NCBI GenBank assembly: GCA_965247455.1
Contig: CBDFHE010000018.1
Location: 404,566 to 468,565, forward strand
Source of the DNA: Candidatus Acidiferrales bacterium
Lineage (GTDB): Bacteria > Acidobacteriota > Terriglobia > Acidiferrales > 2-02-FULL-67-57
Length of the DNA stretch: 64,000 bases
Reading direction: 5' to 3'
The notes beneath the pieces are model-generated. The model saw only the letters and a program-made list of their open reading frames with translations. It made no database searches and was not told the DNA's origin. The position numbers and the translations under genes are program-made. Positions 11,344 to 64,000 of the stretch are shown here, in pieces. The first letter of the stretch is position 1. Each line of letters starts with the position of its first letter.

Positions 11344-11370
11344 AAGCTATCTCACAAACGCCAAAGCCAG

Positions 11371-11490
11371 CCATTGCGTTTGCAGAGGCATTACCTCAGG
11401 GGCTAAAGCCCCTGTTTTACAGCACATCGTACGGCACGGCTGAAGCCGTGCCCTGACGAAACCTCCACACACCGTTCATAAGATGACTTC
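11371..11490 (+). repeat. double-hairpin intergenic element, copy 1 (family A)
   Basis: Shares about 120 bp with 19258-19380 and, inverted, with 48861-48985. Contains the hairpins AGGGGC-TAAA-GCCCCT and GGCACGGC-TGAA-GCCGTGCC. Confidence 0.85.
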
Positions 11491-11528
11491 TGGCGGGATT
11501 GCTCGCCGCTCCCGGCCAACCGAAGCCG

Positions 11529-11776: not shown

Positions 11777-11792
11777 AATCGAAAAGACGGAG

Positions 11793-13601: not shown

Positions 13602-13699
13602 GTGTAATTTACCACCTGTTCATTTGATTACATAGGCCGGGCAATGGTTGCGCCGAACAGGCAGAGACCCAGTCACATAGGATACCAAAATCGGGCGCG

Positions 13700-15181: not shown

Positions 15182-15212
15182 CTAAGTCGCCCCCCGGCCT
15201 GACAGCAACCAT

Positions 15213-16895
15213 CTTAGCCGGGATTTCCGTTTTGCCTGCCCCTGATGGCACGTTTATACACCCGATCGCCGCCGATCGCACAAAAACTTCGATCGTCGCA
15301 CAATCGCTCAGCTTCAAAGGCCTTCATCTGAGCCCGCGCCGACGTGCGACCGACTGGAACCCCTGCTTTTCGGGCATTTCTCAGACACCGCTCCACACGT
15401 GTGCCCCGTGTCATCGCCGGGCGGGCTTCGTTGCACTTCAGGCCGCGCGTCAGCCTGCCGGCACGGGTAGCGCCCAGATCCTCCGCAGCATGTCGCCGAA
15501 CAGCCGCCGCGTGAGATGCCCTTCCGCCAGCAGAAGCCAGTAGTACCGCGCATGCTTCACCAGCCGGCCCCCAGTTTTCACCAGTCGCTGCTGGAGACTC
15601 GTGAGCGACCAGCGCTTGACCCGCAGCGGAAGGACCAGTCTGCGCCACAAGTTGCCCAGATTGTAGGCCAGGACGCTCAGTTGCAGGCGCACCTCGTTCG
15701 CCCGGAAACGATGGCACGACAGCCGCGTCCAGTGGGTGGCCTGCTTGCCTTCCTTGATCCATTGCTCCGCCGTACCGCGCTTGTTGTAAAACCGCACGAC
15801 CGAGCGGCTCGGGAGGGCCATGTTGGTCACGATGAAGCCGACGCGAGGGAACAGCTCACCTTGGTGGTGCTCCACCTTGGCGACGATCCGTCTGGGCGTG
15901 GTCCAGCTCTTGGCCTGATAGCGGAAACTCTGGTAGCGCACCAAGGGCTTGCAGCTCGGCCGTCCCGGCGGACGAAAGAGGATGTCTTCGATTTCCAGCT
16001 CCAAGCTCTTGTTCGCCGGCATGCGAATGGCATAGTCCACGTCGCGCTGCTCGAGCGCGTCGTAGATCTCGGGCTTCGCGAACGCGGCGTCTGCGCGGAA
16101 CGCTACGCGCTTGCCCTCCACCTGCTGCCGGTCAATCTCCGGTACGAGCAGGTCGTCCCAGTCGTCGGCGCTATGCACGTTGCCTGGCCGCAGCGTGGCG
16201 GCGAGGCAGTCCCCATGCTCGGTGAACAGAAACAGCGGGTGGTAGCAGACGGACTCGAAGTGCCCGTTATAGGCGCTCCCTTCCTGCGCCCCATGCACCG
16301 GGCTCTCGCTCGAATCCATGTCGAGCACGATCCGGTCGGCGCGCGTCGCCATCTCGGCCTGTGCAAGCACCTCCCGGTTCACGGCCCTCAACCCGACGAG
16401 ATTCTCCTCGTGGGTCAGCAGCTCTGTCTCGAACCAATGCAGCGTCGATGTCAGCGCCGCACCCCGGTCCCAGCGCTTTGGCGACCCGATGAGACGAAAT
16501 GTTGGGTCTGCCGACACGCGCCCCGCGTCGTTGAGATCTTCGTAGCCCGCGAGGCGACTGTAGACCGACTGCCGCAGGAGATCCACCACGCTGAACTGGG
16601 TGTTCATCCCCTGTCGGGAATCGCTCAGGTGCTCGGCGATGAGTGTCTCCAGCCCCAGACGTTCATCCAACTCGCGCACCAGAATGAGGCCAGCGTCAGA
16701 AGTGACGCGCGATCCCTGGAACGCGACTTTCAAGAAGCCGTTGAACGCGAACTGGAATGGCTCGTGTTGTAATTCACCCACCGGGTGTCACCCTCCGTAG
16801 TGTGGTTCCTTACGTCGGAGCCCCAAAACTCAAGGCGCAGCGACTGGTCCTGGCGATACGGTACCACAGCCAAATCGGAAATCCGGGCTTAGACC
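15213..16895 (-). mobile_element. IS1380-family-like insertion sequence (~1.68 kb)
   Basis: Single DDE transposase ORF bounded by imperfect ~27-bp inverted repeats. 15213-15239 (TCTTAGCCGGGATTTCCGTTTTGCCTG) matches the reverse complement of 16869-16895 (TCTAAGCCCGGATTTCCGATTTGGCTG) at 23/27. Length matches IS1380-type elements. Target duplication not resolved. Confidence 0.75.
15450..16781 (-). CDS. IS1380-family DDE transposase
   Basis: 443 aa. The N-terminus (..VTSDAGLILVRELDERLGLETLIAEHL..) and overall length are typical of IS1380/IS4-like transposases. Confidence 0.8.
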   Translation of the reverse strand: MGELQHEPFQFAFNGFLKVAFQGSRVTSDAGLILVRELDERLGLETLIAEHLSDSRQGMNTQFSVVDLLRQSVYSRLAGYEDLNDAGRVSADPTFRLIGSPKRWDRGAALTSTLHWFETELLTHEENLVGLRAVNREVLAQAEMATRADRIVLDMDSSESPVHGAQEGSAYNGHFESVCYHPLFLFTEHGDCLAATLRPGNVHSADDWDDLLVPEIDRQQVEGKRVAFRADAAFAKPEIYDALEQRDVDYAIRMPANKSLELEIEDILFRPPGRPSCKPLVRYQSFRYQAKSWTTPRRIVAKVEHHQGELFPRVGFIVTNMALPSRSVVRFYNKRGTAEQWIKEGKQATHWTRLSCHRFRANEVRLQLSVLAYNLGNLWRRLVLPLRVKRWSLTSLQQRLVKTGGRLVKHARYYWLLLAEGHLTRRLFGDMLRRIWALPVPAG

Positions 16896-16944: not shown

Positions 16945-17092
16945 GGTAGCGTCTTAATTTCACACCGAGCCCCCAGGCCCCTGCCTGGGGGAAGCGAAAA
17001 TCCCTGCGGCCTGCCTGCGGTAGGCAGGCGGGGGCCGCAGGGCTCGGTGTGATTTGGGCCGAGTTCCGAATCGCTCAAATTAAGACACTACC
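16945..17092 (+). mobile_element. MITE-like element copy 1 (148 bp) with 8-bp target-site duplication
   Basis: Terminal inverted repeats GGTAGCGTCTTAATTT / AAATTAAGACACTACC. Flanked on both sides by GAAATTTC (16937-16944 and 17093-17100). About 90% identical to the inverted copy at 18831-18979. Confidence 0.85.
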
Positions 17093-17198
17093 GAAATTTC
17101 GCTTCGACGAGTGCTGCGCGGCGTTGAACGGCAGGGCGAGGCGTTGCCGCAGCACGGGGAAGAATCAATCAGCGAGGAGGCTACTGTGCTCACGTTGC

Positions 17199-18359
17199 TC
17201 ACTGGGGATCAGGCGGTTTGAGTGTTGGGTCGAGCCGCTGCGCTTCTGCAAACGCTCGGCGCGCTTCTTTTTTCTTGCCTGCGTCTTGGAGTGCCAGACC
17301 CAGGTTGTAATGGAAGGATGGGTCGTCGGGTTTGCGCTGCAGAGCTTTGTTAAAGGCAGCGATGGCCGCGTCGAACTGGCCCTTGCCGGCGAGGGCGAGG
17401 CCGAGATTGCTGAGGGCTTCGGGGTCGTCGGGTTTGCGCTGCAGAGCTTTGTTAAAGGCAGCGATGGCCGCGTCGAACTGGCCTTTGCCAACGAGGGCGA
17501 GGCCGAGGTTGCTGAGAGCTTCGGGGTCGTCGGGTTTGAGCTGCAGAGCTTTCTTCAGGGCGGCGATGGCGTCGTCGAGCTGGCCTTTGCCAACGAGGAC
17601 GAGGCCGAGGTTGCTGAGGGCTTCGGGGTCGTCGGGTTTGAGCTGCAGAGCTTTCTTCAGGGCGGCGATGGCATCGTCGAACTGGCCTTTTTTGCCGAGG
17701 GCGAGGCCGAGGTTGTTGAGGGCTTCGGGGTTGTCGGGTTTGAGCTGCAGAGCTTTGTGATAGGCAGCGAGGGCCTCGTCGAACTGGCCTTTGTCGGCGA
17801 GGGCATTGCCGAGGTTGTTGAGGGCTTGGGGGAAGTCGGGTTTGAGCTGCAGAGCTTTCTTCAGGGCGGCGATGGCATCGTCGAACTGGCCTTTGTCGGC
17901 GAGGGCATTGCCGAGGTTGTTGAGGGCCTGGGTGTAGCCGGGCTTGAGCTTCAGAGCTTTATGATAGGCGGCGATAGCCTCGTCGAACTGGCCCTTGTGG
18001 CCGAGAGCGACGCCGAGGTTGTAGAACGAAGTGCCTACTTTCGGAAGGGCCATCGTTGCCAAGCGCGCCTGCTGGAGGGCTTCGTCTAGGTTCTGCGCCG
18101 CGTCGGCTTTCATTTGCCGCCTAGCAAGAGCGTTGCCGATGGCGAACTCGGTGGCAGGGTGCAGGTCGGTTACGGCTCGCACAGCCATCTCTTGCAATGC
18201 TTGGTGTAGTGTAGAGGTATCGCTGCGCTCGGCATGCACTTCCCACGGGCCAACGCCTGATGACCGCCCGACCAGCAGAAGCCCCGATTCGCTCGGAATC
18301 ATGTCGCCACTGATGACAACCTGCCGCTGGAAGAGACGCCGCAAGAACGAATTAAACAC
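17199..18359 (-). CDS. tetratricopeptide (TPR) repeat protein
   Basis: Eight or more consecutive 34-aa TPR units (ALNNLGNALADKGQFDDAIAALKKALQLKPD..). The N-terminal ~110 aa are non-TPR. GTG start at 18359. Confidence 0.85.
   Translation of the reverse strand: MFNSFLRRLFQRQVVISGDMIPSESGLLLVGRSSGVGPWEVHAERSDTSTLHQALQEMAVRAVTDLHPATEFAIGNALARRQMKADAAQNLDEALQQARLATMALPKVGTSFYNLGVALGHKGQFDEAIAAYHKALKLKPGYTQALNNLGNALADKGQFDDAIAALKKALQLKPDFPQALNNLGNALADKGQFDEALAAYHKALQLKPDNPEALNNLGLALGKKGQFDDAIAALKKALQLKPDDPEALSNLGLVLVGKGQLDDAIAALKKALQLKPDDPEALSNLGLALVGKGQFDAAIAAFNKALQRKPDDPEALSNLGLALAGKGQFDAAIAAFNKALQRKPDDPSFHYNLGLALQDAGKKKEARRAFAEAQRLDPTLKPPDPQ
17321..18034. repeat. 7 x 102-bp tandem repeat (coding, TPR units)
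   Basis: The motif GGTCGTCGGG (or a close variant) recurs at 17321, 17423, 17525, 17627, 17729, 17831 and 17933, an exact 102-bp period. Units 17321-17422 and 17423-17524 are nearly identical at the DNA level. Confidence 0.9.
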
Positions 18360-18360
18360 T

Positions 18361-18774
18361 TCAGGAGAGAAGCCGCCGTATTCTACTGTTACCTGTGCAA
18401 TCGACGGGAGTTCGAAATGCGTGGCATAGAAGCTCGCCCCTTCCGTTTTCCCTTCCGGGTGCGACTCGCATCTCTCGTTGCAGCTTGAGCAGCTCGTCGC
18501 CTAGGCGCGCCGCTATTCCTTCGCCGGGATATTGAGGGGGCGAACTGCCCCAGACGCGGAAGGGTGCGATGGAGATGAAACGTCGCTTCCCCACAACCAG
18601 GTATAGCCAATAACAAAGAGCGTAGATGGCAAGCAGAAACAGAACACTCAGGATGGTCTGAATGACGTTCTCTGCTCCCCACAGGGCTTTGAGCAAACCC
18701 ATCAAGAACTGGGCGAAACTAACCACCAGCGAGAGAACTTTCTCAGCTATACCGGGCGGATACGGATGGAGCAT
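18361..18774 (-). CDS. hypothetical membrane protein (possibly the detached N-terminus of the downstream TPR gene)
   Basis: 137 aa with two or three hydrophobic helices, then ISIAPFRVWGSSPPQYPGEGIAARLGDELLKL. That segment resembles the post-TM segment of the kinase gene in this window (IAVLPLDNMMGDAEQDYFVEGMHEALITEL). Stops 1 nt before the TPR start. Confidence 0.5.
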   Translation of the reverse strand: MLHPYPPGIAEKVLSLVVSFAQFLMGLLKALWGAENVIQTILSVLFLLAIYALCYWLYLVVGKRRFISIAPFRVWGSSPPQYPGEGIAARLGDELLKLQREMRVAPGRENGRGELLCHAFRTPVDCTGNSRIRRLLS

Positions 18775-22093: not shown

Positions 22094-22169
22094 GAGCCCG
22101 TAGCTCAGTCGGTAGAGCATCTGCCTTTTAAGCAGAGGGTCGTGGGTTCGAGCCCCACCGGGCTCACCA
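22094..22169 (+). tRNA. tRNA-Lys (anticodon TTT), CCA encoded
   Basis: Folded by hand. Acceptor GAGCCCG/CGGGCTC, D arm GCTC-AGTCGGT-AGAGC, anticodon arm TCTGC-CTTTTAA-GCAGA, T arm GTGGG-TTCGAGC-CCCAC, discriminator A, then CCA. Confidence 0.92.
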
Positions 22170-40529: not shown

Positions 40530-43214
40530 TTGGCGATTACCCGTACGCCTCAATCAGCGTTCCGGCGTCGCAGCCAACGGATTCCGTTGGCGGTGCCTCT
40601 TTTTGTCTCCAGCCTTGACCCGAACTTCAAATTCTCCGAACGGTGCGAAACCGTGTCCGTAAGCAGCCACGGGTGTCGCCTCCGGGCCCCCTGCTCCTTG
40701 GAAAAAGGCATGCAGGTACGCCTCGATATTCTGCACACCGACCGCACCACCAATGCTCACGTCGTCGGCTCGGAAGCGCTCGGGGCCGATATCAAAACCT
40801 GGGAAGTCTCGCTGGAACTCGACAACCCAGAGAATTTCTGGGGCATCCAATTCCCACCCGAAGACTGGGCCGCGCAAACCCGCGCTCGCGGTCGGGGACA
40901 AGCAGAAGCCAAAGCTTCGAGTGCTGCTCCTCCCGCAGCGGCAACTCCAAAAGCTTCCACGGCGGCCAAGCCTGCGGCTCCGCCTGCTCCCTCGGCTCCG
41001 GAGAAAGCGGCCCCGGTACCGCCCAAGGCTCCCGTAGCTCAGCGACCAGCCGCTTCCGCTCCGCCGCCTGCACCATCACAAGCCGCTGCGCCCGCGCCCC
41101 CGAAAGCCCCGGCACCACCGCCCGCGCCCGCTCCCGTGGCCGCGCTGCCCGACGTCGGCAAAGTGGTGAAAGAATTTGAGCGGATCCTGCAGGGCAAGGC
41201 CAAGGACATCTCCAGTGAGTTTGAAAACTCCTACCGCGAAAGCCTGGGCGACCTGCTGGTGCGCCTCCGCGCTGACTTCGAGGAGCGCGCCTCCTCCGAT
41301 TGGGAGCGCCTCCAAAAACAGGCCCAAGGAGGGTTGCAGGAGATCGCCCAGCAAGTTCGCCAGTCCGTGGACCAAGACCTGGAACGCCGCCGTCAAGACT
41401 CCACCGACGCAGAATCCAAGCTCCAGGCCGTGCGGAAGCTCAGCGAAGAGGCGGAAGCACTCCTTTTCGGCGTCGGGAAGACCTTCCGTAAGCAGGTCGC
41501 CCAGGAGCGCGAGCTCTTGCTGGCCAACTCGCGCGAGCAACTTCAGGCCGTGGTCGAGCAGACCCGCACGCAAGTCCGGCAGGATTTGGCCCGGCGCGAG
41601 AAATCCACCACCGACCTCCAAGCCCACCTCGATGAGATGCGCCAGGCCCGCGACTACGTCGAGTCGCTCGTCCGCCTGCTCCCGCAAACCGTGGACGACC
41701 GCGTCAAGGAAGGAGTCAGCGGCACCCTGGAGCGCATCCGCGCCCTGATCGAAGAGGAGTTCTCCGCCCAGCGCGAAGCTCAGCGGGGGCAACTCGAGCA
41801 GCACCTGCTCGGCCTCACCGAAAACGTCGGCCAGGACCTGCGGCAAAAGCTACTCGAAGACTTCGACCGCAGCGAGCGTGAATTCCTCGACCGCATCAAC
41901 GTGCGCCTGAAAGAAGCGCGCGCCATCGAAGGCAGCTTGCAGCAGTACGCCGGCCAGATGAACTCCCAGCTCACGCAGCAGGCCGAAGAACTGCTGGCCC
42001 GGATGCAGGCTCAGCTCAACGTACTGCTCCAGCGCCGCCAGGACGAGCTGACTGCAAGCCTCGACCAGCGCAGCACCCAGCTCCAGCAGCAGTTGCACGA
42101 CTGGCAACAGTCCGTGGACAAGACCCGGGAAACCCACCTGGATGGTTTGCAGGCCGAGTCAGACCGGCTCAACGCCCTGCTGGGAGAAGCGCAAGCGGCC
42201 GAGAAAAGCCTGCACCGTTATGCGCAGCAGGTCGGTACCGACCTGGCTCAACAGACTGACCAAATGCTGGCCGCCATGCGCACCCAGCTTGAGAACCTGA
42301 TAAAGCAAAGCCAGGGTGAGATCACCACCCACCTCGAACAGCAAAACGCTCAATTCAGCCAGCGGGCGGAAAAAGCCCTGCGCAGCCTGGGCGAGCAGGC
42401 GTGGAATTCCGTCCAGCAGCGTCTGCGGACCGACTTCGGCCAGCGCCAGCAGGAGCTGAAGGAAACTCTGGAAAAAACCCAGGCCGAGTCCACTCGCCTG
42501 GGAGCACGCGCCGAAGCATTGGCGGCCCAGCTGGACGAAGGACTAGAAGCACGGCTGGAAAAAGCTGTGACCGACACCGTCAACCACACCCGCGAACAGC
42601 TCGAACAAGCAGCCGAAACCGTGCGGCAGACCCACCTGCCGCAGTTGCAAGAAGAGCTCGACCAGACGCTGGCTCCCCTGGTCAGCCGCAGCGAAGCCAC
42701 CGCGGTTGACCTGCACGCTCTGCTCGACTCCCTCAAAAAAGAGGGTGGTCAGTTGGAAACCCAAGTAGGGGAATTCCGCCAGGAGGCCGAGCAAGCGCGC
42801 ACTTGGCTGACGGACGAGACCAAGAATTTCCAGAAGCAAGTCCACGAAGCCCTGGTCGAGGCCAGCGGCCAGATCAAAGACCGCATCCACCTGGCCATCG
42901 AAATGGCCCAGGAGCCCATGGAGCACCGCGCCCGCGAGCTGCGCGCGCAGTTGGAGGAGTTGAGCACCAACACCAGCCAGGAGCTGGCGCAACAGTTGAA
43001 CGAAGTCCACGAGCATCTGCGCGCCAGCCAGAGCAAAGCGGAAACGTCGGTCGATTCCATGCTGGACGCCCGCTTGACCGAGGCGCTCGACCGCTTCCGG
43101 CAACAAGCCGAAGAGATGGCGCAGGATTCCGCCGCTCAGGTGCAGGCCACCCTCAACGACACCTTGGAGTCCGTCTCCCGCCTGTTGCGTGAGAAGCTCG
43201 GCCCCAAGCGCTAG
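40530..43214 (+). CDS. PilZ domain - Pro/Ala-rich linker - ~690-aa coiled-coil protein
   Basis: N-terminal PilZ-like motifs RRRSQRIPL (RxxxR) and TVSVSSHGCRL (xxSxxG). Residues ~120-205 are a PAPA low-complexity linker. The rest is heptad-rich with internal ~70-aa repeats. The TTG start at 40530 is uncertain. Confidence 0.7.
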   Translation: MAITRTPQSAFRRRSQRIPLAVPLFVSSLDPNFKFSERCETVSVSSHGCRLRAPCSLEKGMQVRLDILHTDRTTNAHVVGSEALGADIKTWEVSLELDNPENFWGIQFPPEDWAAQTRARGRGQAEAKASSAAPPAAATPKASTAAKPAAPPAPSAPEKAAPVPPKAPVAQRPAASAPPPAPSQAAAPAPPKAPAPPPAPAPVAALPDVGKVVKEFERILQGKAKDISSEFENSYRESLGDLLVRLRADFEERASSDWERLQKQAQGGLQEIAQQVRQSVDQDLERRRQDSTDAESKLQAVRKLSEEAEALLFGVGKTFRKQVAQERELLLANSREQLQAVVEQTRTQVRQDLARREKSTTDLQAHLDEMRQARDYVESLVRLLPQTVDDRVKEGVSGTLERIRALIEEEFSAQREAQRGQLEQHLLGLTENVGQDLRQKLLEDFDRSEREFLDRINVRLKEARAIEGSLQQYAGQMNSQLTQQAEELLARMQAQLNVLLQRRQDELTASLDQRSTQLQQQLHDWQQSVDKTRETHLDGLQAESDRLNALLGEAQAAEKSLHRYAQQVGTDLAQQTDQMLAAMRTQLENLIKQSQGEITTHLEQQNAQFSQRAEKALRSLGEQAWNSVQQRLRTDFGQRQQELKETLEKTQAESTRLGARAEALAAQLDEGLEARLEKAVTDTVNHTREQLEQAAETVRQTHLPQLQEELDQTLAPLVSRSEATAVDLHALLDSLKKEGGQLETQVGEFRQEAEQARTWLTDETKNFQKQVHEALVEASGQIKDRIHLAIEMAQEPMEHRARELRAQLEELSTNTSQELAQQLNEVHEHLRASQSKAETSVDSMLDARLTEALDRFRQQAEEMAQDSAAQVQATLNDTLESVSRLLREKLGPKR

Positions 43215-57168: not shown

Positions 57169-58593
57169 CTATGCGGGACTGACGCTGTTGCCGAGGGGCG
57201 GCGCCTGCCGGCCTCCACACTGCTGTTCAATCTTGGCTGCGATCGCCAGCACGACTTCTTCCTCGTAGGGCCGGCCGACGACTTGCACTCCGATGGGCAG
57301 GCCCTCGGGCGAACGGCCCACCGGAACCACAACGCCGGGATTGCCCAACAGGTTAAACCAGGGCGTGTAGCTCATTGCGTCCAGATAGGAAATTGACTGG
57401 CTGTTGATTGTCCAGGCGCGTTCGCCGTGGCGGAAAGCCGGAACCGCACAGACCGGGCAGAGCAGCACGGGGAATTTCTCCATCTGCTCGGCCAGGCCAA
57501 TCACCAGTTGGTCGCGTTCTATCCAGGCATTGAGCAGCTCCTCAGCCGTGAGCAGGGGCGCTTGAAGCGCATACTGCATCAGGGTAGGAACCTGGTTCGA
57601 TGCGCGCCCCTCAAACTCCTGCCCCAAAAGCGTCCTAGCCCCGAAACCAAGGAACAGCCACAACAACTGTCGCGCCCGCTCCAGTCCCTCCGGCCGGAAA
57701 GGCACCACCTCGAAGCCCTGCTGCTTCAGCGTCTCGGCTGCTGTGCGGACAGCCGCCCGCGTTTCCGGCGTGACCGGCGTGCGGCCGTCGTCCTCGAAGT
57801 AGCCGATGCGAATCTTGTGCACCTCTGCATCGCTCAAACGGCGCAGCGGCACGGGCGCGGCGCAGGCGTCACCTTTATCGGGCCCGGCCATCGCTTCGAA
57901 AAGGAGATGAAGATCGGCGACGGTGCGGGCCAGAGGGCCGACTACTCCCAGCAAGGCGAAGGGCCCCAGGGAAGGAGGGTAATGGCCGGTGGCCGGGATG
58001 CGGCCCGGCGTCGGCTTCAGGCCGCAGACGCCGCTGAAATGGGCGGGAACTCGGATGGAGCCAGCCCCGTCGCTGCCAACTCCTCCGGCGGAGCAGCCGG
58101 CGGCGATTGCCGCCGCCTCGCCCCCGCTCGAACCGCCCGGCGTGCGTTCCAGGTCCCACGGACTATTGGTTCTTCCGTAGAGGAGATTATCGGTCTCGAA
58201 GGCCATGAGCATCTCGGGGACGTTGGTGTTGCCAAGCACGATTGCCCCCGCCGCCTTGAGCCGCGCCACCACGGGAGCGTCGGTTTCCGCCACATAGCCG
58301 GCGCGGAGCTTGCTGCCGGTCTCGCAGCGCAGGCCGGCGACGTCGATCGAACTCTTGATGGTTACGGGAACTCCGTGCAGCGGCCCCACGGTGGCGCCCT
58401 GCAGAACATCCACCTCCGCTTTGCGCGCGGCTTCGAGCGCGCGAGCGGAATCCACGGAAACAAAGGCATTCAGTTGCGGGTTGAACCGCTCGATCCGATC
58501 GAGGTGCGCTTGCACCAACTCAACTGGAGAGATTTTCTTGTCCCGAATCATCCGCGCCATTTCACGGGCGGAGCGATGCTTGAGAGAATCCAT
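57169..58593 (-). CDS. amidase (amidase-signature family)
   Basis: AS signature GGSSGGEAAAIAAG, catalytic-Lys region (GVPVTIKSSIDV). ATG 58593 is preceded by GGAGGGGAGGG; the ORF opens at 58761. Confidence 0.85.
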   Translation of the reverse strand: MDSLKHRSAREMARMIRDKKISPVELVQAHLDRIERFNPQLNAFVSVDSARALEAARKAEVDVLQGATVGPLHGVPVTIKSSIDVAGLRCETGSKLRAGYVAETDAPVVARLKAAGAIVLGNTNVPEMLMAFETDNLLYGRTNSPWDLERTPGGSSGGEAAAIAAGCSAGGVGSDGAGSIRVPAHFSGVCGLKPTPGRIPATGHYPPSLGPFALLGVVGPLARTVADLHLLFEAMAGPDKGDACAAPVPLRRLSDAEVHKIRIGYFEDDGRTPVTPETRAAVRTAAETLKQQGFEVVPFRPEGLERARQLLWLFLGFGARTLLGQEFEGRASNQVPTLMQYALQAPLLTAEELLNAWIERDQLVIGLAEQMEKFPVLLCPVCAVPAFRHGERAWTINSQSISYLDAMSYTPWFNLLGNPGVVVPVGRSPEGLPIGVQVVGRPYEEEVVLAIAAKIEQQCGGRQAPPLGNSVSPA

Positions 58594-59125
58594 ACCCTCC
58601 CCTCCAATCGCGATAGGACGCGAGTGTATCACGCGGTGGAGGCTTTTTCGGATCGCACACCGGCGAACAACGATGGAATCCGCAGCGGTTAAAGTACGAT
58701 TCTGGGGACAGCAGAAGAGAAAGTGGCGGGTGGGCCTATAAGCCGGATTCTGTCCAGGCAAGATCAGCTAAGTTGTTGCCAGCCCGCCAGTTCCTTCTAA
58801 TCTTCTTAGTTTTAACTGGTTATCAGTCTTTCTCCCCAATCTCTCTATTCTTTCGAGTCTACCTGGTTCCGCACATTCTGGACGCTAAATGGACGCTAAG
58901 CCTGCTCGCCCATTCGCTGCCTCGACTGTCTCAAAACCTGTGGTTTGGGACAGCCCGCCGTGTTGACTTGCCACGGGATGGGACAGAGGTGATCGGGGAT
59001 TTCTGTGTCGCAACGCTTCCGTCAGCAATCCTTACAACTTCAACATACGCAACCCCAGTGCTGTGATTCTTGAAGGAGAGAGCAGCGCAAAGTTGTAGGT
59101 GGAAAAACGGTTGTCCTACGAGCGC

Positions 59126-60106
59126 TTACTCTGCAGCCAAACGAACTAGTTCATGATAGAGCGCTTCGTCAATTGAGACAAAACCGGCGCGCCGGTACTC
59201 TCGAGCTTTCTTGTCGCCGCGTTCACCGGGGAGATAGATCTCATCGACTCCTCTTTGCTTCTCTGCGGACTTGATCCATTTGGCAAATCGAGAGATTCTC
59301 TGCAAGAAGGTCTCTTGCTTGCCAAATATCGCCGGATCGAGCACGATCAGAAAGTGTCCCCAATTATTTTTGTCACCGGGATTCTCGAAGGCGCCCACCA
59401 ATAGACCGGCAACCAACTGAACCGCAACACCCAAGCCCCAGCCGAACACACCTTTGGGCAGGATGGTGCCTTCTAAAGCCTCCTTTGCGTCGGTCGTGGG
59501 TTCGCCCTGGCTATTAAGAGCCACACCGAGCGGAATCGTCTTGTTCTGCCTTGCGGCCTCAACGAGCGCGTAATAGGCCCACTGGGCAGTGGTGGCATCA
59601 AAGACAAGTGGATCGCTTTCGGATGGAAAGGCGATCGAGATAGGATTTGTGCCGATCCGGGCTTCTTTGCCACCATACGGTGCCACCATTGCCGGGGTCG
59701 CGGCAGTTAGCAAAGCAATCAGTCGGTGCTCGCGCGCGATCTTGCCTGTAAAGTAGCCGATCGCACCGCTAGAGGAGTTGGTGTGGTTTATGCCGACCAT
59801 GCCGACGCCATATGTCTTTGCTTTCTTTACGGCGAACTCAGATGCTTTGGCAAGCACAACCTTTGCATTATTGTAGTTCGCGTTGAGCAGGCACGCGGTC
59901 TCGGTTTCAGAAACAACTTCAATCGATCCTTTTGGTGCATAGGCGATGTCTTTGAGCGTCTGAAGATCTTGATTGTTATCTCGAAGCTCTGCATACATCA
60001 GGCATTCCCGGATGATGCTAGCTTCCTCACTGGGAAAGCCTTGAGATCGCAGGATGGATGATGCCAGGTTCCTGAGTTCGTCGATTTTCACTTGCAAGCT
60101 GGCCAT
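59126..60106 (-). CDS. Ldh2-family (malate/L-lactate/imino-acid) NAD(P)H-dependent oxidoreductase
   Basis: 326 aa. Family segments GMVGINHTNSSSGAIGYF, GTNPISIAFP and HFLIVLDP. Confidence 0.8.
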   Translation of the reverse strand: MASLQVKIDELRNLASSILRSQGFPSEEASIIRECLMYAELRDNNQDLQTLKDIAYAPKGSIEVVSETETACLLNANYNNAKVVLAKASEFAVKKAKTYGVGMVGINHTNSSSGAIGYFTGKIAREHRLIALLTAATPAMVAPYGGKEARIGTNPISIAFPSESDPLVFDATTAQWAYYALVEAARQNKTIPLGVALNSQGEPTTDAKEALEGTILPKGVFGWGLGVAVQLVAGLLVGAFENPGDKNNWGHFLIVLDPAIFGKQETFLQRISRFAKWIKSAEKQRGVDEIYLPGERGDKKAREYRRAGFVSIDEALYHELVRLAAE

Positions 60107-60180
60107 GATCTAGGCTCCGTTCACTTCGATGAAATTTGGCTCAGTGACTGCCCGCTGCTTTCTGTTCCGACAAACATCGC

Positions 60181-61488
60181 CTAATAAGAGAAATTTCTAA
60201 CGGATGATGAACAGAATCTATCCAGACTCAAACAGGACAAGTTAATTGATGAAGTACCCCCACAGACCAACTGTGCTATGAGCTGGCCCGTTACCGGAGC
60301 CAAGGACATTCCGAGCATTCCGTGTCCAGTTGCAAGTAAGAGGTTTTCGAATTCCCTCGGCCGGCCCACAACTGGCAATCCGTCGGGCGTTAGGGGGCGC
60401 AGTCCTGACCAAACCTCATGAACGCGAAGACCCTTAAAATGCGCTAGGTACCTGCCAGCAGCGCGCAAGATTACATTCACCCGACGCTGGGAAATAGACA
60501 AGTCCACGCCAGCCAGTTCCAGTATCCCTGTTATCCTAAGCTTGCCATTCATGGGAGAGGCAAGCGTCTTTGCCTCTCTAAATGAGAGAGGAATTTGTGG
60601 GGATTCCGCTTGTCCTTCCACGGTTACGCTGTAGCCTTTGCCGGCCTGAATTGGGAGGTTGAGTGCAAGTTTTCTAGTTAGAGCAGGAGACCATGCTCCC
60701 GCAGCCAACACCACTTCATCGGGTTGGAAATTACCCTTGTTCGTTTTGACCCTTGAGATTCGTCTACCATGGATCTCCAGCTCCTCTATCTCCGTTGACG
60801 TCTTGACCTTCACACCCAGTCCCTCGACGACCCCAGCCAGGCCGCGAACAAACTCGGCCGGCAACAATTGGGCATCCTCAGGGAAGAGGATCCCTCCACA
60901 TAGTGAAGGTAATAGAGTTGGTTCTAGTTTGTGCACCTCCGCTGGATCCAATCCCTTTGAGTCGATTCCGTACTCTTTCAGCAGGTCGGCTTCTTTTTTC
61001 ATCTCTTCAAGTCCGTGCCGACTCCTTGCCACGACCAGCAAACCGTTGCGCTGGTAGCCGAATTCAAACCCGTCAATGGCACTCAATTGCTCATACAGCG
61101 AGAGGCTGGCGCGAATCAAATCGCGCAGTACCGGTATGGCCTTTCGGACAATTGCCTCCTTGGACGAGCGTTGAAACCACCACAACCATCTGATGAGTTC
61201 GGAATCGAAGCGAGGCCTGATATAGAAAGGGCTATCCTTGCCCAACATGTATCTTATCGCTTCTGCTATTACTCCTGGTGCAGCAAGGGGAATACTGTAA
61301 CTGGGAACCACCAGTCCGGCATTCCCATAGGAACAGCCTGAAGAGATTTCACTCTTCTCAACAAGCGTGACATCCCTACCTGCCATGGCAAGGTAGTAGG
61401 CGCAGCATACCCCAATCACGCCTCCACCGATTACGAGTACGTCTGTACGATTCAAGCTGCTATGCATCTCCCCTGTGAAGCCATTCAC
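60181..61488 (-). CDS. FAD-dependent oxidoreductase (DAO family, D-amino-acid dehydrogenase-like)
   Basis: N-terminal dinucleotide fold DVLVIGGGVIGVCCAYYLAMAGRDVTLVEK. DadA-like length and C-terminal GHGMLGMSLAP. Confidence 0.85.
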   Translation of the reverse strand: MNGFTGEMHSSLNRTDVLVIGGGVIGVCCAYYLAMAGRDVTLVEKSEISSGCSYGNAGLVVPSYSIPLAAPGVIAEAIRYMLGKDSPFYIRPRFDSELIRWLWWFQRSSKEAIVRKAIPVLRDLIRASLSLYEQLSAIDGFEFGYQRNGLLVVARSRHGLEEMKKEADLLKEYGIDSKGLDPAEVHKLEPTLLPSLCGGILFPEDAQLLPAEFVRGLAGVVEGLGVKVKTSTEIEELEIHGRRISRVKTNKGNFQPDEVVLAAGAWSPALTRKLALNLPIQAGKGYSVTVEGQAESPQIPLSFREAKTLASPMNGKLRITGILELAGVDLSISQRRVNVILRAAGRYLAHFKGLRVHEVWSGLRPLTPDGLPVVGRPREFENLLLATGHGMLGMSLAPVTGQLIAQLVCGGTSSINLSCLSLDRFCSSSVRNFSY

Positions 61489-62405
61489 CGTTCATTCCGA
61501 AGTGCCCAGGGCTTGAGCAATGCGTACACTGTCTGGGTCATTGGAACCTTCAGGCCATGGCGTGTTGCGCGGCGTAGGACCGTTCCATGCAAGGTCTCCA
61601 ACTCCATCCGCTTGCCCTGACTCTTGTCATATTGCAGCGACGACAGAAAAGTTGGATCCAAGTTCTGCGCAAAGGTGGAAAGTTTCTCAACCGTGTCTTT
61701 CGGCAGAGCAACACCTTCCGCGACGGCTAGCCTGCACACTTCAGCGACGAGATCTTGGAACAATTCCCACGTCTCAGGAACGGAGCGGAGTTCGCCAATG
61801 GGAAGGTCCGCGGCAGCCGTTATGCCTGACTGCGCACAAATGAGAGCAAACTTGCTCCACAGCACCACGCGAATGTTCTCGGATAACTCGGTCTCAATAC
61901 CGGCACGCTGAAGATGGCCCAGAAGCCGTTTCGCCCGCGCGCTCTGGGATCCATCCAATTCACCAAAAATTACTCTGGCAAGTTTCCCGACATGCCGTAC
62001 CACTCCAGGCTCAGAAATCGTGGAAAAGATAAAGGCTGCTCCACCGAGAACGCATGAACCGTGGATTATCTCCGCAAGTATGTCTTCGTTGTCCACACCG
62101 TTCTGCAATGACACAACCACCGTTTCTTGGTGAAGTAAGGCCGGCAAACGGGCTGCGGCCTTCTCTGTATCGTTGGATTTGACGCAGAACAGAACGAGAT
62201 CACAAGGTCCAATCTCTCGCGGGTCCTCGGTTGCCGGGAGTCGTACATCAAGGTCCCCAAGGACGCTTTGGATCTTTAGCCCTCTGGTTTGCAGAGCTTC
62301 AAGGTGCCGGCCTCGTGCAATGAGATGTACAGAGAACCCTGCTTGGGCAAGCCGTCCTCCAAAGTAACCGCCGACACCGCCCGCCCCGTAGACAGCAATC
62401 TTCAC
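61485..62405 (-). CDS. 2-dehydropantoate 2-reductase family (ApbA/PanE-like) oxidoreductase
   Basis: MKIAVYGAGGVGGYFGGRLA Rossmann start. The family's central Lys region (LWSKFALI) and C-terminal S..D...GK..E (SSLQYDKSQGKRMELE). 4-nt overlap with the downstream gene. Confidence 0.8.
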   Translation of the reverse strand: MKIAVYGAGGVGGYFGGRLAQAGFSVHLIARGRHLEALQTRGLKIQSVLGDLDVRLPATEDPREIGPCDLVLFCVKSNDTEKAAARLPALLHQETVVVSLQNGVDNEDILAEIIHGSCVLGGAAFIFSTISEPGVVRHVGKLARVIFGELDGSQSARAKRLLGHLQRAGIETELSENIRVVLWSKFALICAQSGITAAADLPIGELRSVPETWELFQDLVAEVCRLAVAEGVALPKDTVEKLSTFAQNLDPTFLSSLQYDKSQGKRMELETLHGTVLRRATRHGLKVPMTQTVYALLKPWALRNER

Positions 62406-62415
62406 AGCAACTTCC

Positions 62416-63342
62416 CTATTGGTCTCGCAAGCCGACCGGATGCCATTTCTGGCCTGCGCGAACAGCTATGGGAAGGTGGTTTTGCCGTCTCGGGGAAGGA
62501 CAGTTGAAAACCGGACTGTAGCAGCAGGGTGGATTGTAAGCTTGATTGAAGTCCACGATGATCCGGCCACTCATTTTTCCTTCCACACGAAGAAACCGGC
62601 CTCCGAGATAGCTCTCCTGCCCACCGGTGCCATCGGTGAACATCAACATGAATCCATCCTGACTAATCTTATTCTGGTCAATGGAACGGGTATAGAGCTC
62701 CAATTGACACTGTACACCCTTCAAGGAGAAGACCAGCCGACCGTATACCCACCAGGGGAGTTCGTCTTGGTGGCTGTAGACTAGACCGATACGCCTTGGT
62801 TTCTCGTGTGGGATTATTTCTGCTTCAACGTAGTAGTCGGGATCGACGGGAAAACAGTCCAGGCCCTTGAAGTCCATTAGGCTGGGATGTTTGGTGTCAT
62901 ACACCTCAATCATTCGTCCCCAGGTCGAGTGTGAGATGTAGCGTAGATTGAATTGCCCGATGCGGAACCCCGTGGTGTCCAGCAGATTGAGCACGGTCAC
63001 ATTGACTGTGGGCTTTCCAAGCCTAGCCACAACAGCCTTCTCTACCGCCCTCAGGGCTTGATCGGTCTTGGTGACTTCAATGCCCGCATGAGCAGGCAGA
63101 ATTTCTGCTCCCTCAAGCCGTATATCTGATTCAGGGCTCGATCCAATTGTTATTTTACTGTTTTCCTTCAGGTATTCACGGTGTATAAGCGCCAGTTCGG
63201 AAAACGGATCTGTACGGAGCGTCGCATCGCGTGTCCTGCGCAACTCTTCGATTCGGCTAACATAAACCTTCTCAAACTGTTGTTGGGTGTCCAACCGTTC
63301 CTCGTTAAATTCCAGCGTCTGGTACAAACTTTCCTTTTTCAA
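62416..63342 (-). CDS. DUF1684 domain protein
   Basis: C-terminal hallmark DFNQAYNPPCCYSPVFNCPSPRRQNHLPIAVRAGQK. Confidence 0.8.
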   Translation of the reverse strand: MKKESLYQTLEFNEERLDTQQQFEKVYVSRIEELRRTRDATLRTDPFSELALIHREYLKENSKITIGSSPESDIRLEGAEILPAHAGIEVTKTDQALRAVEKAVVARLGKPTVNVTVLNLLDTTGFRIGQFNLRYISHSTWGRMIEVYDTKHPSLMDFKGLDCFPVDPDYYVEAEIIPHEKPRRIGLVYSHQDELPWWVYGRLVFSLKGVQCQLELYTRSIDQNKISQDGFMLMFTDGTGGQESYLGGRFLRVEGKMSGRIIVDFNQAYNPPCCYSPVFNCPSPRRQNHLPIAVRAGQKWHPVGLRDQ

Positions 63343-64000
63343 TCAACAACTTGTCATCTACGTAGAAATTGTGGTCAAAGAGAATAATATCGGTGTGACT
63401 CGGCGCCTTGCTGTCCCCCGCCAAGAACCGAAACATGTTCGAACCAAAAGCAATGTTGATGGCTGCCTTCTTGCTTTCGGGGCCACCCGGATCGGCAGCA
63501 CTGAACGAGCGAATGCGCTCGTCCAATCCGAATCCTGTATGTGCGATGACGTATGCCCCTGGATGATTCCACTCCTTGAGCCACGAGGAAAAATATTCTG
63601 CCTGAGCCGTATTGCCTTCAATCTTGGTCAGCTTTCCACCTTTGACTTCCAGCCTGAACGGCTCATCAACGATCATGAGTTCGGGATGGACGTGGACTGT
63701 CCCCTTGACCACGACCACCCCGTCGGCCTGATCTTCAGGAGAGGCAAAGGCGGCCAAGCTGATTCCGTAGCTGTCCCAGGAACCGGAAGTCGACACACTC
63801 CCCCCTTGGGTGTGGATGGGACGATCTCCGCGTTTCAGCACGATGTCTGTCCCCTCCTCGGAGGTGATCCGTACGGACTTGCAGTTATCCAACCACTTGT
63901 GCGCCACTTTCTCCCGCCTGAGGATTTCCGTTGTCGGGGGCCTATCCACGACAGCTTCCGGCGAGCGAGACACCATGACCTGAAGCATCCGGGTGCCTGA
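63305..64000 (-). CDS. M29-aminopeptidase-fold / NicX-like (2,5-dihydroxypyridine dioxygenase-like) protein, 5' end probably outside window
   Basis: The segments HTGFGLDERI.. and INIAFGSNMF....KAPSHTDIILFDHNFYVDDKLLIEKGKFV parallel, from memory, the NicX/aminopeptidase T C-terminal metal-site region (H.G.GL ... H.D......Y.D....). Confidence 0.65.
   Translation of the reverse strand, partial: SGTRMLQVMVSRSPEAVVDRPPTTEILRREKVAHKWLDNCKSVRITSEEGTDIVLKRGDRPIHTQGGSVSTSGSWDSYGISLAAFASPEDQADGVVVVKGTVHVHPELMIVDEPFRLEVKGGKLTKIEGNTAQAEYFSSWLKEWNHPGAYVIAHTGFGLDERIRSFSAADPGGPESKKAAINIAFGSNMFRFLAGDSKAPSHTDIILFDHNFYVDDKLLIEKGKFVPDAGI

What the first reader, a model, noticed from the sequence alone, without database searches (positions are those of the whole stretch)
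58770..64000. Lower-GC five-gene island: NicX/M29-like, DUF1684, PanE-like reductase, DAO-type FAD dehydrogenase, Ldh2-family reductase
Seen: from about 58770 to the window end the composition drops. Two 60-nt lines counted by hand give 50% and 55% GC, against 77% for a sampled line at 47401. All five genes are on the minus strand and tightly packed (a 4-nt overlap at 61485-61488, a 38-nt overlap at 63305-63342, and 10-75-nt gaps). A 360-bp AT-rich, gene-free stretch separates the island from the amidase gene. Established: the Ldh2 family includes delta1-piperideine-2-carboxylate/pyrroline-2-carboxylate reductases (DpkA/LhpD type). These act after FAD-dependent D-amino-acid or D-hydroxyproline dehydrogenases (DAO family). 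NicX-type proteins with the M29 fold open hydroxypyridine rings. Inference: this looks like a horizontally acquired catabolic cassette for a D-amino acid, cyclic imino acid or N-heterocycle. This combination, including DUF1684, is not a described pathway that I recognise.
Basis: partly seen in the sequence, partly recalled or inferred. Interest (0 to 1): 0.6.

Follow-up and report, generated by a model that had tools for sequence, protein, structure and literature searches.

The report
Genomic island inserted into rnpB
The low-GC stretch at the window's end is the last fifth of a 25.5-kb piece of foreign DNA that inserted into the RNase P RNA gene of an uncultured soil acidobacterium, bringing one long operon of uptake and breakdown genes for an unidentified peptide-like or cyclic-amide nitrogen compound; it is a clear but fairly ordinary horizontal transfer.

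Summary
GC falls from 64.0% to 53.0% at window 58756. Tetranucleotide and codon-position statistics put this tract far outside the host range.

It is not a five-gene island. Near-identical contigs from other samples show a 25,455-bp island bounded by a perfect 38-nt direct repeat. The left copy is the 3' end of an intact RNase P RNA gene (rnpB). The right copy is window 58718-58755, just upstream of the host amidase.

The island's left end holds mobile-element debris: PRiA4_ORF3, two IS3 copies, lysin fragments and an IS1595 fragment. No integrase is present. The rest is one 13-gene co-directional operon: TonB receptor, two M24, HyuA/HyuB lactamase, M19, MFS, M20, NicX-like, DUF1684, PanE, DAO, Ldh2.

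The junction occurs in three sequences from different samples, so a chimeric assembly is rejected. Horizontal acquisition is strongly supported.

The functional labels are only partly supported. The NicX-like protein lacks NicX's Ser302 ligand and its substrate residues, and no nic genes are nearby. The Ldh2 protein is closer to sulfolactate/malate dehydrogenases than to DpkA. A related cluster carries a proline-racemase-type gene where this island has DAO and Ldh2, which favours a D-/L-proline-type end step. rnpB as a target has a published precedent.

The parts
57169..58593 (-). Host flank: amidase gene (474 aa), first gene of a conserved Terriglobia gene run (amidase, cytochrome/TPR, FG-GAP, TPR/FG-GAP). 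It is not part of the island.
   Evidence: Pfam Amidase E 9e-110. GC 64.9%, GC3 0.76. An amidase lies directly upstream of the cytochrome/TPR gene in 48 of 80 Terriglobia genomes.
58718..58755 (-). attR-like copy of the 38-nt direct repeat. It is the displaced 3'-terminal fragment of the RNase P RNA gene and marks the right border of the island. Read on the minus strand: GGACAGAATCCGGCTTATAGGCCCACCCGCCACTTTCT.
   Evidence: It is identical to L096 2227-2264, which overlaps the last 33 nt of a full-length rnpB. Similarity stops sharply at both ends (blastn E 3e-18). There are exactly two copies and no degenerate third copy. A partial RF00010 match lies at 58723-58786 (27.4 bits, E 1e-5), and nhmmer also finds the fragment.
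58756..59125 (.). Island-side non-coding spacer between the att repeat and the last cargo gene, 51.4% GC.
   Evidence: It contains no supported ORF. Promoter and terminator pattern scans of 58400-64000, which includes this spacer, give no more hits than shuffled sequence.
59126..60106 (-). Ldh_2-family NAD(P)-dependent oxidoreductase (326 aa), the last gene of the operon.
   Evidence: Pfam Ldh_2 E 6e-73. No NCBIfam equivalog cutoff is reached. Nearest solved structure: L-sulfolactate dehydrogenase 2x06, E 5e-42; DpkA 1wtj, E 1e-18. No relative above 28% identity in the JGI metagenomes.
60181..61488 (-). FAD-dependent amine or D-amino-acid oxidoreductase, DadA-like (435 aa).
   Evidence: Pfam DAO E 1e-77, covering residues 16-407. 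NCBIfam D-amino-acid dehydrogenase PRK00711 scores 299 bits, below the cutoff of 383. Nearest solved structures are glycine and sarcosine oxidases. The 355-aa gene call on the 209-kb contig cuts off the FAD-binding N-terminus; the 55.9-kb contig is called at 435 aa.
61485..62405 (-). PanE/ApbA-family 2-oxoacid (2-dehydropantoate-type) reductase (306 aa).
   Evidence: Pfam ApbA and ApbA_C. TIGR00745 subfamily scores 259 bits, above its cutoff of 141. The best equivalog scores 243.8 against a cutoff of 252. Nearest PDB entry 3hwr, E 1e-53.
62416..63327 (-). DUF1684 protein (303 aa; the longest ORF reaches 63342). Function unknown.
   Evidence: Pfam DUF1684 E 1e-37. Only uncharacterised PDB entries match (2lnu, 2lok). 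The roughly 300-aa two-part architecture is the common form of a large family with 4,192 representatives.
63305..64000 (-). C-terminal two thirds of a NicX-fold (M29-like) metalloprotein. The full gene encodes 331 aa and starts about 300 nt beyond the window end.
   Evidence: 7cn3 NicX E 5e-19 for the partial protein and 6e-22 for the full-length one. The precomputed Pfam family is PF26233. H254, H302 and D304 are conserved. Ser302 is Gly, His105 is Tyr, Glu177 is Gln and His189 is Ser.

Best explanation
SHOWN. The window's last 5.2 kb is the right-hand end of a 25,455-bp genomic island in an uncultured Terriglobia (Acidobacteriota) chromosome. The island lies between the 3' end of the RNase P RNA gene (rnpB) and an amidase operon. 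It is bounded by a perfect 38-nt direct repeat. The left copy completes an intact rnpB. The right copy (window 58718-58755) is an orphan 3' fragment of rnpB.

Inside, from left to right, are a PRiA4_ORF3 gene, two 99.7%-identical IS3-family copies bracketing lysin (Amidase_2) fragments and a truncated IS1595 transposase, a PG_binding_1 fragment, and a truncated HTH_22 regulator. After these comes a 13-gene co-directional operon with gaps of 155 nt or less: TonB-dependent receptor, M24 x2, HyuA/HyuB, M19, MFS, M20, NicX-like, DUF1684, PanE, DAO, Ldh2.

INFERRED (mechanism of arrival). An integrative element carrying an attP identical to the conserved 3' end of rnpB recombined site-specifically with the chromosomal rnpB. 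This rebuilt the gene and left the old 3' end as attR. The integrase was later lost, probably during the IS-driven decay seen at the left end, so the island is now fixed. The donor was a lower-GC lineage. The closest related clusters sit in uniformly 50-55% GC DNA.

INFERRED (cargo function, lower confidence, about 0.35). The operon imports and dismantles a small peptide-like or cyclic-amide nitrogen compound. The receptor and the MFS transporter take it up. The ATP-dependent HyuAB lactamase would open a cyclic amide. The M24, M19, M20 and NicX-fold metallohydrolases would cleave the resulting (Xaa-Pro or L-D) peptide bonds. The window's four-gene tail would process the released D- or imino acid: DAO oxidises it to the 2-oxo/imino acid, and the Ldh2 and PanE reductases reduce that to the L-imino or hydroxy acid.
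For: Island and horizontal transfer:
- Composition statistics.
- A 38-nt perfect direct repeat exactly at both composition shifts, with no similarity outside it.
- The left copy lies in a full-length rnpB (RF00010, 168.5 bits, E 4e-53). The right copy is a partial rnpB match in the window.
- Mobile-element genes at the left end.
- Host-like DNA on the far side: LigA C-terminus and rnpB, 62.6% GC.
- None of 80 Terriglobia relatives carries island genes next to the conserved amidase operon.
- The junction is present in the window, in the 209-kb contig (sample ERZ25067264) and in the 55.9-kb contig (sample ERZ25072076). These differ by natural-looking SNPs, with 21 transitions to 10 transversions. 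The 55.9-kb contig spans both junctions.
- Published precedent: a 21.3-kb element in the M. avium 104 RNase P RNA gene, whose repeat starts at the same conserved motif (PMC7192596 supplement).

Cargo:
- Family assignments.
- Operon spacing.
- Related clusters conserve the block from the TonB receptor to NicX at 66-69% identity.
- More distant NicX-like genes always sit with M24, M20, a creatininase-type cyclic amidase and a transporter.
- The relative L003 has a Cys/Cys proline-racemase-type enzyme plus an OCD/mu-crystallin protein where this island has DAO and Ldh2. Both enzyme pairs have characterised members that interconvert D-proline or hydroxyproline and L-proline via pyrroline-2-carboxylate (PMC3958920).
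- DUF1684 on two Paracoccaceae plasmids is the last gene of a five-gene ABC-transporter operon whose layout I read as Opp/Dpp peptide type.
Against: Island:
- No integrase or excisionase gene is present, so site-specific recombination is inferred only from the geometry and the precedent.
- No strain with an empty rnpB-amidase site was found. In the 80 reference relatives, rnpB and ligA are not near the amidase operon at all, so ancestral adjacency is unproven.
- The left border was seen on a single 3x-coverage contig that contains frameshift errors.
- The left 5.7 kb of debris and the 19-kb operon could be two elements that arrived separately.

Cargo:
- No NCBIfam equivalog cutoff is reached by any gene of the operon.
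- The Ldh2 protein resembles 2-hydroxyacid dehydrogenases more than the imine reductase DpkA.
- The DAO protein's nearest solved relatives are glycine and sarcosine oxidases.
- The substrate is unknown, and nothing was tested biochemically.
Confidence: 0.8

Rival explanations
1. Assembly chimera. The composition switch is a false join between contigs of a 64% GC and a 54% GC organism in a low-coverage metagenome assembly.
For: On the 209-kb contig the low-GC tract runs to the contig end, so only one border is visible there. Coverage is low, judging from the contig names (7x and 3x).
Against: The same junction is present in the window and in assemblies of two different samples that differ by 0.1-0.26% in SNPs. 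One contig spans host, island and host. The two borders share a 38-nt repeat that is the 3' end of rnpB, which is a biological signature and not an assembler artefact. The 209-kb contig ends inside a duplicated IS, an ordinary cause of assembly breaks.
Confidence: 0.03
2. Native, vertically inherited locus whose composition is atypical for reasons of expression or selection. No transfer took place.
For: All strains seen (at least 99.7% identical) carry it. No mobility enzyme for the island as a whole is present. GC among Terriglobia loci ranges from 53% to 64%.
Against: Flanking att-like repeats lie in an RNA gene. IS, plasmid-type and lysin debris sits at one end. GC3 and GC-normalised tetranucleotide usage both deviate sharply. 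The cluster is absent from the equivalent locus in 80 relatives. The nearest homologous clusters lie in uniformly low-GC DNA.
Confidence: 0.04
3. Two elements in tandem. A decayed prophage or plasmid-like element (PRiA4_ORF3, lysin fragments, IS copies) integrated at rnpB, and the catabolic operon arrived separately, for example by recombination or IS-mediated capture next to it.
For: The lysin, PRiA4 and IS genes are functionally unrelated to the operon. The regulator is truncated and inverted relative to L003 and L004. The last four genes have lower GC3 (0.54-0.58) than the upstream block (0.61-0.69), which hints at a mosaic.
Against: Only two copies of the att repeat exist, with no internal degenerate copy at up to 8 mismatches. 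Low GC is continuous from one repeat to the other.
Confidence: 0.15
4. Cargo alternative A. The cassette degrades an N-heterocycle such as a hydroxypyridine, with the NicX-like protein as the ring-cleaving dioxygenase.
For: The only solved homologue is NicX (E 6e-22), and the His-His-Asp triad is conserved.
Against: Ser302 is an invariant Gly. His105, Glu177 and His189 are replaced. According to PMC7910607, the Ser302Ala and His105Ala variants are inactive. No NicC, NicD, NicF or NicE-type genes occur in any of five contexts. The partners are peptidases and cyclic amidases.
Confidence: 0.05
5. Cargo alternative B. This is a hydantoin or creatinine-type pathway. HyuAB opens an N-substituted hydantoin, M20 acts as an N-carbamoyl-amino-acid amidohydrolase, the M24 proteins act as creatinase-like amidinohydrolases, and DAO acts as a sarcosine or glycine oxidase feeding glyoxylate to the two reductases.
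For: The JGI annotation of HyuB homologues is N-methylhydantoinase B. The M24 proteins carry the Creatinase_N domain. Creatininase genes accompany NicX-like genes elsewhere. The DAO protein's nearest solved relatives are glycine and sarcosine oxidases. The HyuA/HyuB/HyuC (M20) trio is a known hydantoin-utilisation set (my own knowledge; not checked here).
Against: The best NCBIfam matches for HyuA and HyuB are caprolactamase, and for M24 they are PepQ and ectoine hydrolase, all below cutoff. A proline-racemase-type gene in the relative points to proline and not sarcosine. The M19 dipeptidase and the TonB receptor fit peptides better.
Confidence: 0.2

Closest known systems
Integrative genetic element 'Mav1.21.RNaseP_RNA' of Mycobacterium avium 104 (TIGER survey, PMC7192596, supplementary file 6)
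   Same: Size is similar (21.3 kb against 25.5 kb). The target is the RNase P RNA gene. The direct repeat (42 nt against 38 nt) begins at the same conserved motif (GGAACAGAATCCGGCTTA... against GGACAGAATCCGGCTTA...) and runs through the 3' end, so the gene is restored.
   Different: The host phylum differs. I did not examine that element's gene content or integrase. The present island has no integrase and has a decayed left end.
tRNA/tmRNA-targeting genomic islands (Islander/TIGER type)
   Same: Integration is into the 3' part of a conserved structured-RNA gene, with a duplicated 3' fragment as the distal repeat. Composition is atypical, cargo genes are metabolic, and IS elements have accumulated (PMC7192596).
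   Different: The target is rnpB, not a tRNA or tmRNA gene. The survey text names ssrS as a new RNA target, and rnpB appears only in its supplement. The integrase normally found next to the intact RNA gene is missing.
[quoted passage not shown]
   Same: An FAD oxidoreductase of the DAO family sits next to an Ldh_2-family reductase. A related cluster has a Pro_racemase-family gene and an OCD-family gene in the same position.
   Different: The Ldh2 protein is only distantly related to DpkA (E 1e-18) and is closer to sulfolactate and malate dehydrogenases. The DAO protein is below the DadA cutoff. The known pathways have no counterpart for PanE, DUF1684, NicX-like, HyuAB or the M19/M20/M24 genes.
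NicX, 2,5-dihydroxypyridine 5,6-dioxygenase of Pseudomonas putida (PDB 7cn3; PMC7910607)
   Same: The fold family is the same (PF26233; E 6e-22 over residues 71-326). His265, His318 and Asp320 are conserved.
   Different: The Ser302 ligand is Gly. The substrate residues His105, Glu177 and His189 are Tyr, Gln and Ser. There is no nic gene context. Homologues on plasmids are annotated either as leucyl aminopeptidase or as 2,5-dihydroxypyridine dioxygenase.
ATP-dependent hydantoinase / oxoprolinase / caprolactamase systems (HyuA/HyuB, CapA/CapB)
   Same: Two adjacent genes have the full Hydantoinase_A and Hydantoinase_B architecture. The best NCBIfam matches are caprolactamase alpha and beta.
   Different: Scores are far below the equivalog cutoffs (562 and 222 bits against 1000). 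The genes are embedded among four metallopeptidase-family genes and a TonB receptor, an arrangement that I do not recognise from described Hyu or Cap clusters (my own knowledge; not checked here).

Membership tests
Integrative genomic island (IGE) in a structured-RNA gene | Direct repeats at both ends, one of them inside the target gene and restoring it | tested here: met
   A 38-nt perfect repeat. The left copy overlaps the last 33 nt of a full-length rnpB (model positions 1-367, 168.5 bits). The right copy is an orphan fragment at window 58718-58755.
Integrative genomic island (IGE) in a structured-RNA gene | Composition distinct from the host chromosome on both sides | tested here: met
   53-55% GC inside, against 64.0% on the right flank and 62.6% on the left flank. 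Tetranucleotide usage and GC3 also deviate.
Integrative genomic island (IGE) in a structured-RNA gene | Integrase (tyrosine or serine recombinase) encoded within the element | tested here: not met
   No recombinase appears among the called genes or ORFs of L096 2265-8030 or the rest of the island. Only IS3 DDE transposases and an IS1595 fragment are present. I interpret this as decay, so membership is as a degenerate island.
Integrative genomic island (IGE) in a structured-RNA gene | Absent (empty attB) in some related genomes | tested here: inconclusive
   0 of 80 Terriglobia relatives has island genes beside the amidase operon. In those relatives neither rnpB nor ligA is near that operon either. 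No close strain lacking the island was retrievable.
NicX (2,5-dihydroxypyridine 5,6-dioxygenase) | Fe(II) ligands His265, Ser302, His318, Asp320 | tested here: not met
   His, His and Asp are present (H254, H302, D304), but Ser302 aligns to an invariant Gly286.
NicX (2,5-dihydroxypyridine 5,6-dioxygenase) | Substrate-positioning residues Leu104, His105, Glu177, His189 | tested here: not met
   Leu is kept (L90). His105 is Y91, Glu177 is Q165 and His189 is S177, consistently across 15 subfamily members.
NicX (2,5-dihydroxypyridine 5,6-dioxygenase) | Genomic association with nicotinate or hydroxypyridine pathway genes | tested here: not met
   Five independent contexts show M24, M20, creatininase or HyuAB, and transporters. 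None shows nic-type genes.
DpkA/LhpD-type Pyr2C/Pip2C reductase (Ldh_2 family) | Membership of the Ldh_2 (type-2 malate/lactate dehydrogenase) fold family | tested here: met
   PF02615 E 6e-73, covering the full length.
DpkA/LhpD-type Pyr2C/Pip2C reductase (Ldh_2 family) | Closest characterised relatives are the imine reductases rather than the 2-hydroxyacid dehydrogenases | tested here: not met
   2x06 sulfolactate dehydrogenase 5e-42, malate dehydrogenase 2e-31 and ureidoglycolate dehydrogenase 1e-30, against DpkA 1wtj at 1e-18.
DpkA/LhpD-type Pyr2C/Pip2C reductase (Ldh_2 family) | NADPH-dependent reduction of Pyr2C/Pip2C | not testable with these tools
   An enzyme assay is needed.
DadA-type D-amino-acid dehydrogenase | Score above NCBIfam PRK00711 cutoff | tested here: not met
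   299 bits against a cutoff of 383. This is the best-scoring NCBIfam model, and the protein is a full-length DAO-family member.
PanE/ApbA 2-dehydropantoate 2-reductase family | Score above family cutoff | tested here: met
   TIGR00745 (subfamily) 259 bits against a cutoff of 141. The best equivalog scores 243.8 against 252, just below, so family membership is met but the specific substrate is not established.
DUF1684 | Pfam PF07920 domain above the gathering score | tested here: met
   129.5 bits against a cutoff of 25. The architecture is typical of the family.

The most novel reading that the evidence does not exclude
The recurring gene set (a NicX-fold protein with Gly in place of Ser302, two or three M24 'creatinase/prolidase' genes, an M20 peptidase, a cyclic amidase that is either HyuAB or creatininase, and a dedicated transporter) defines an undescribed catabolic pathway for a cyclic peptide-like nitrogen compound, for example proline-containing diketopiperazines or D-Pro peptides. 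In this reading the NicX-fold protein is a hydrolase and not a dioxygenase. The last step, D-to-L conversion of a proline-type imino acid, is carried out by interchangeable non-homologous modules: a proline-racemase-type enzyme in one lineage, and DAO with Ldh2 (plus PanE and DUF1684) in this island. The whole pathway moves between acidobacteria on rnpB-targeting elements.
Probability: 0.2. Interest if true: 0.6.

Novelty: new member of a known kind. Interest (0 to 1): 0.4.

Why it matters
This is a cleanly delimited example of recent gene flow in uncultured soil Acidobacteriota, a phylum for which I know of few precisely mapped islands (my own knowledge; not checked here). It uses an unusual target, the RNase P RNA gene, for which I found only one catalogued precedent.

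Practically, it corrects several automatic labels. The '2,5-dihydroxypyridine dioxygenase' annotation on this protein subfamily is probably wrong. The long amidase ORF is an artefact that reads through attR.

The cargo points to a conserved, uncharacterised hydrolase-rich gene set for organic-nitrogen scavenging that may be common in soil, although its substrate is still unknown.

Tried and rejected
- **Exact-protein look-ups for the window's own strain.** The DUF1684 protein in two start variants, and the cluster representative P0113, are listed on 769-kb and 589-kb contigs but were 'not on record'. Those longer contigs could not be inspected.
- **Look-up of a non-window protein.** I spent the last homology search on the 78-aa HTH_22 fragment only to unlock the walk to the left border.
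- **Empty-site search.** In 80 Terriglobia loci the flank upstream of the amidase is variable. ligA and rnpB are not there.
- **JGI metagenome scan with Ldh2.** It returned only homologues of 28% identity or less, so it gave no independent junction.
- **att 38-mer in IMG/VR viral contigs.** No match.
- **IS3 in the window.** The IS DNA and its inverted repeats were searched in the window, including the right junction. Nothing was found.
- **Promoter and terminator scans of 58400-64000.** No more hits than in shuffled sequence.
- **SNP density.** Lower in the island than in the flank (6/5140 against 22/7376, p = 0.035; p = 0.089 over the longer flank). This is too weak to date the transfer.
- **Single-sequence AlphaFold model of DUF1684.** pLDDT 32, unusable, so no fold search was run.
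- **'Unusual N-terminal extension' of DUF1684.** Rejected. It is the common architecture of the family.
- **Plasmid searches.** Only 25-36% identical homologues were found.

Full report
**1. The observation**

A 1-kb GC profile shows 59-69% GC across window 1-58000 and 52-54% from 59001 to the end. On a composite of the window plus its extension, island DNA is 54.3% GC and the host is 64.0%. Host 5-kb segments have an SD of 0.8 points. The tetranucleotide distance of island segments from the host mean is 0.029-0.037, against 0.0118 +/- 0.0018 for host segments. After GC normalisation, tetranucleotide usage correlates 0.74 with the host, whereas host segments of equal size give 0.90-0.96. Mean GC3 is 0.62 for island genes and 0.79 for the neighbouring host genes.

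Their families are confirmed: Ldh_2, DAO, ApbA/PanE and DUF1684 by Pfam, and the partial fifth ORF by its match to the NicX structure 7cn3.

**2. The tract extends far beyond the window**

An exact-protein look-up with the Ldh2 protein retrieved a 209-kb ENA metagenome contig. It matches the window at 99.79% identity, with 31 substitutions (21 transitions and 10 transversions) and no indels. It is therefore a closely related strain and not a copy.

Upstream of the NicX-like gene the same strand carries M20, MFS, M19, HyuB, HyuA, two M24 genes, a TonB-dependent receptor and a truncated HTH_22 regulator. All of it is 50-59% GC. The low-GC tract runs to the end of that contig. The contig ends inside a transposase gene (rve_3, E 4e-17). 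Because only one border was visible there, I treated a chimeric join as a serious rival.

**3. The junction is real and the far border exists**

The window's PanE protein is also encoded on a 55.9-kb contig from a different sample, which has the same Ldh2-to-amidase junction. Cluster listings show the same proteins on further contigs of 769 kb, 589 kb, 23 kb and 6.9 kb.

Walking left on the 55.9-kb contig gives the following order:
- the C-terminus of NAD-dependent DNA ligase and a hypothetical gene, at 62.6% GC;
- a PRiA4_ORF3 gene (E 2e-60);
- an IS3-family element (OrfA HTH_Tnp_1, OrfB rve);
- Amidase_2 fragments;
- an IS1595-type zinc-ribbon fragment, cut off by a second copy of the same IS that is 99.7% identical and in direct orientation;
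- a PG_binding_1 fragment;
- the truncated regulator and the operon.

This single contig spans host, island and host.

**4. att repeats in rnpB**

A k-mer comparison of the two borders found one shared sequence. It is a perfect 38-mer, GGACAGAATCCGGCTTATAGGCCCACCCGCCACTTTCT. It lies at L096 2227-2264 and at window 58718-58755 (minus strand), and similarity stops abruptly at both ends. There are exactly two copies and no degenerate third copy. The distance between them is 25,455 bp.

Rfam places a full-length bacterial RNase P RNA gene at L096 1749-2259 (168.5 bits, E 4e-53). The left repeat is therefore the 3' end of rnpB. In the window only the 3' fragment is present. At the left copy, high-GC DNA gives way to AT-richer DNA. 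At the right copy the order is reversed. This is attL/attR geometry, and 38 nt is far longer than a transposition target duplication.

The supplement of the TIGER survey lists a 21.3-kb element in the RNase P RNA gene of M. avium 104. Its 42-nt repeat starts at the same conserved motif. The target is therefore rare but documented.

No integrase is present in the island. I infer that it was lost during the IS-associated decay of the left end.

**5. Host and relatives**

The flanking cytochrome/TPR gene finds only Terriglobia and other Acidobacteriota genomes, at 77% identity or less. The order amidase, cytochrome/TPR, FG-GAP, TPR/FG-GAP is conserved, with the amidase present in 48 of 80 loci. 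None of the 80 has island genes upstream of the amidase. However, that flank is variable, and neither ligA nor rnpB lies there in the relatives. An exact empty site could therefore not be shown.

The nearest related clusters (HyuB 68-69% identical, NicX-like 66%) sit in uniformly 50-55% GC DNA. This is consistent with a lower-GC donor lineage.

**6. Cargo function**

The 13 genes are co-directional, with gaps from -23 to 155 nt. No gene of the operon reaches an NCBIfam equivalog cutoff.

The NicX-like protein keeps His265, His318 and Asp320. Ser302 is an invariant Gly in the subfamily. His105, Glu177 and His189 are replaced by Tyr, Gln and Ser. Homologues at 42-47% identity sit with M24, M20, creatininase and transporter genes, and never with nic genes. 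The hydroxypyridine reading is therefore not supported.

The Ldh2 protein is nearer to sulfolactate, malate and ureidoglycolate dehydrogenases than to DpkA. The DAO protein is DadA-like by NCBIfam but below the cutoff, and its nearest solved relatives are glycine and sarcosine oxidases. PanE passes the family cutoff but not the equivalog cutoff. DUF1684 is a large family of unknown function with its usual architecture. On two plasmids it ends five-gene ABC-transporter operons whose layout I read as Opp/Dpp peptide type.

The most informative clue is comparative. In the relative L003, the block from the TonB receptor to NicX is conserved. It is followed by a Cys/Cys proline-racemase-type gene (7pb3, E 3e-75) and an OCD/mu-crystallin gene instead of DUF1684-PanE-DAO-Ldh2. 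Both enzyme pairs have characterised members that interconvert D-proline or hydroxyproline and L-proline through pyrroline-2-carboxylate.

I therefore favour, at about 0.35, uptake and hydrolysis of a peptide-like or cyclic-amide compound that ends in D-to-L conversion of a proline-type imino acid. A hydantoin or creatinine-type route is the main functional rival, at about 0.2.

**7. Verdict**

The composition shift is real and has a clear explanation. It is the right end of a decayed integrative genomic island in the 3' end of rnpB of an uncultured Terriglobia bacterium.

Its extent was underestimated about five-fold. Two of its specific enzyme readings (NicX and DpkA) do not survive testing.

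This is a new member of a known kind. The integration target is unusual but has a precedent, and the cargo is uncharacterised. Interest is moderate.

Noticed in passing
window 57358-57360 (minus strand); L001 12747-12749: The host amidase has TGG (Trp) in the window strain. The 209-kb and 55.9-kb contig strains have TAG there, which truncates the protein by 63 residues (411 aa against 474 aa). The amidase next to the island appears to be a pseudogene in some strains of this population.
   Followed up: yes
window 58594-58761: The longest amidase ORF (530 aa, TTG at 58761) reads through the att repeat. The same peptide (GQNPAYRPTRHFLF) appears in an ORF at the left border (L096 2182-2451). This N-terminal extension is an artefact of translating the rnpB 3' fragment.
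   Followed up: yes
L096 3033-4258 and 5927-7153: Two 99.7%-identical copies of a roughly 1.23-kb IS3-family element lie in direct orientation, each with 25-nt terminal inverted repeats. They bracket 1.65 kb that contains lysin fragments and a truncated IS1595 transposase. The IS is absent from the 64-kb window.
   Followed up: partly
L100 7624-10975 (GCA_028282285.1, JANQIG010000029.1): Three tandem NicX-fold paralogues, the first of which also matches Peptidase_M29, sit beside a GntR regulator, an ECF transporter and a creatininase gene. They are divergent from a cyanophycin synthetase / cyanophycinase pair. This may hint that the family acts on unusual dipeptides.
   Followed up: no
L003 8210-11902: The related cluster carries two consecutive HyuB genes (594 and 633 aa) after HyuA. 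It also has a CMD-family gene and an O-methyltransferase gene between the proline-racemase-type gene and the OCD-type gene.
   Followed up: no
window 17001-18400: There is a strong local strand asymmetry (GC skew +0.25, AT skew -0.23). The region gives repeated matches to an FG-GAP/TPR-type protein of a relative, which suggests an internally repetitive gene.
   Followed up: no
window 42001-43000: This 1-kb bin has the highest AT skew of the window (+0.37), inside a long plus-strand ORF (40530-43214). Not examined.
   Followed up: no
window 22094-22169: This is the only tRNA gene in the window (tRNA-Lys, anticodon TTT). No composition shift or repeat was noticed around it.
   Followed up: partly
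L002 16221-20422 versus 1394-16243: The last four cargo genes (DUF1684, PanE, DAO, Ldh2) have lower GC3 (0.54-0.58) than the nine upstream genes (0.61-0.69). They are exactly the part replaced in the relative L003, which suggests a mosaic operon.
   Followed up: partly
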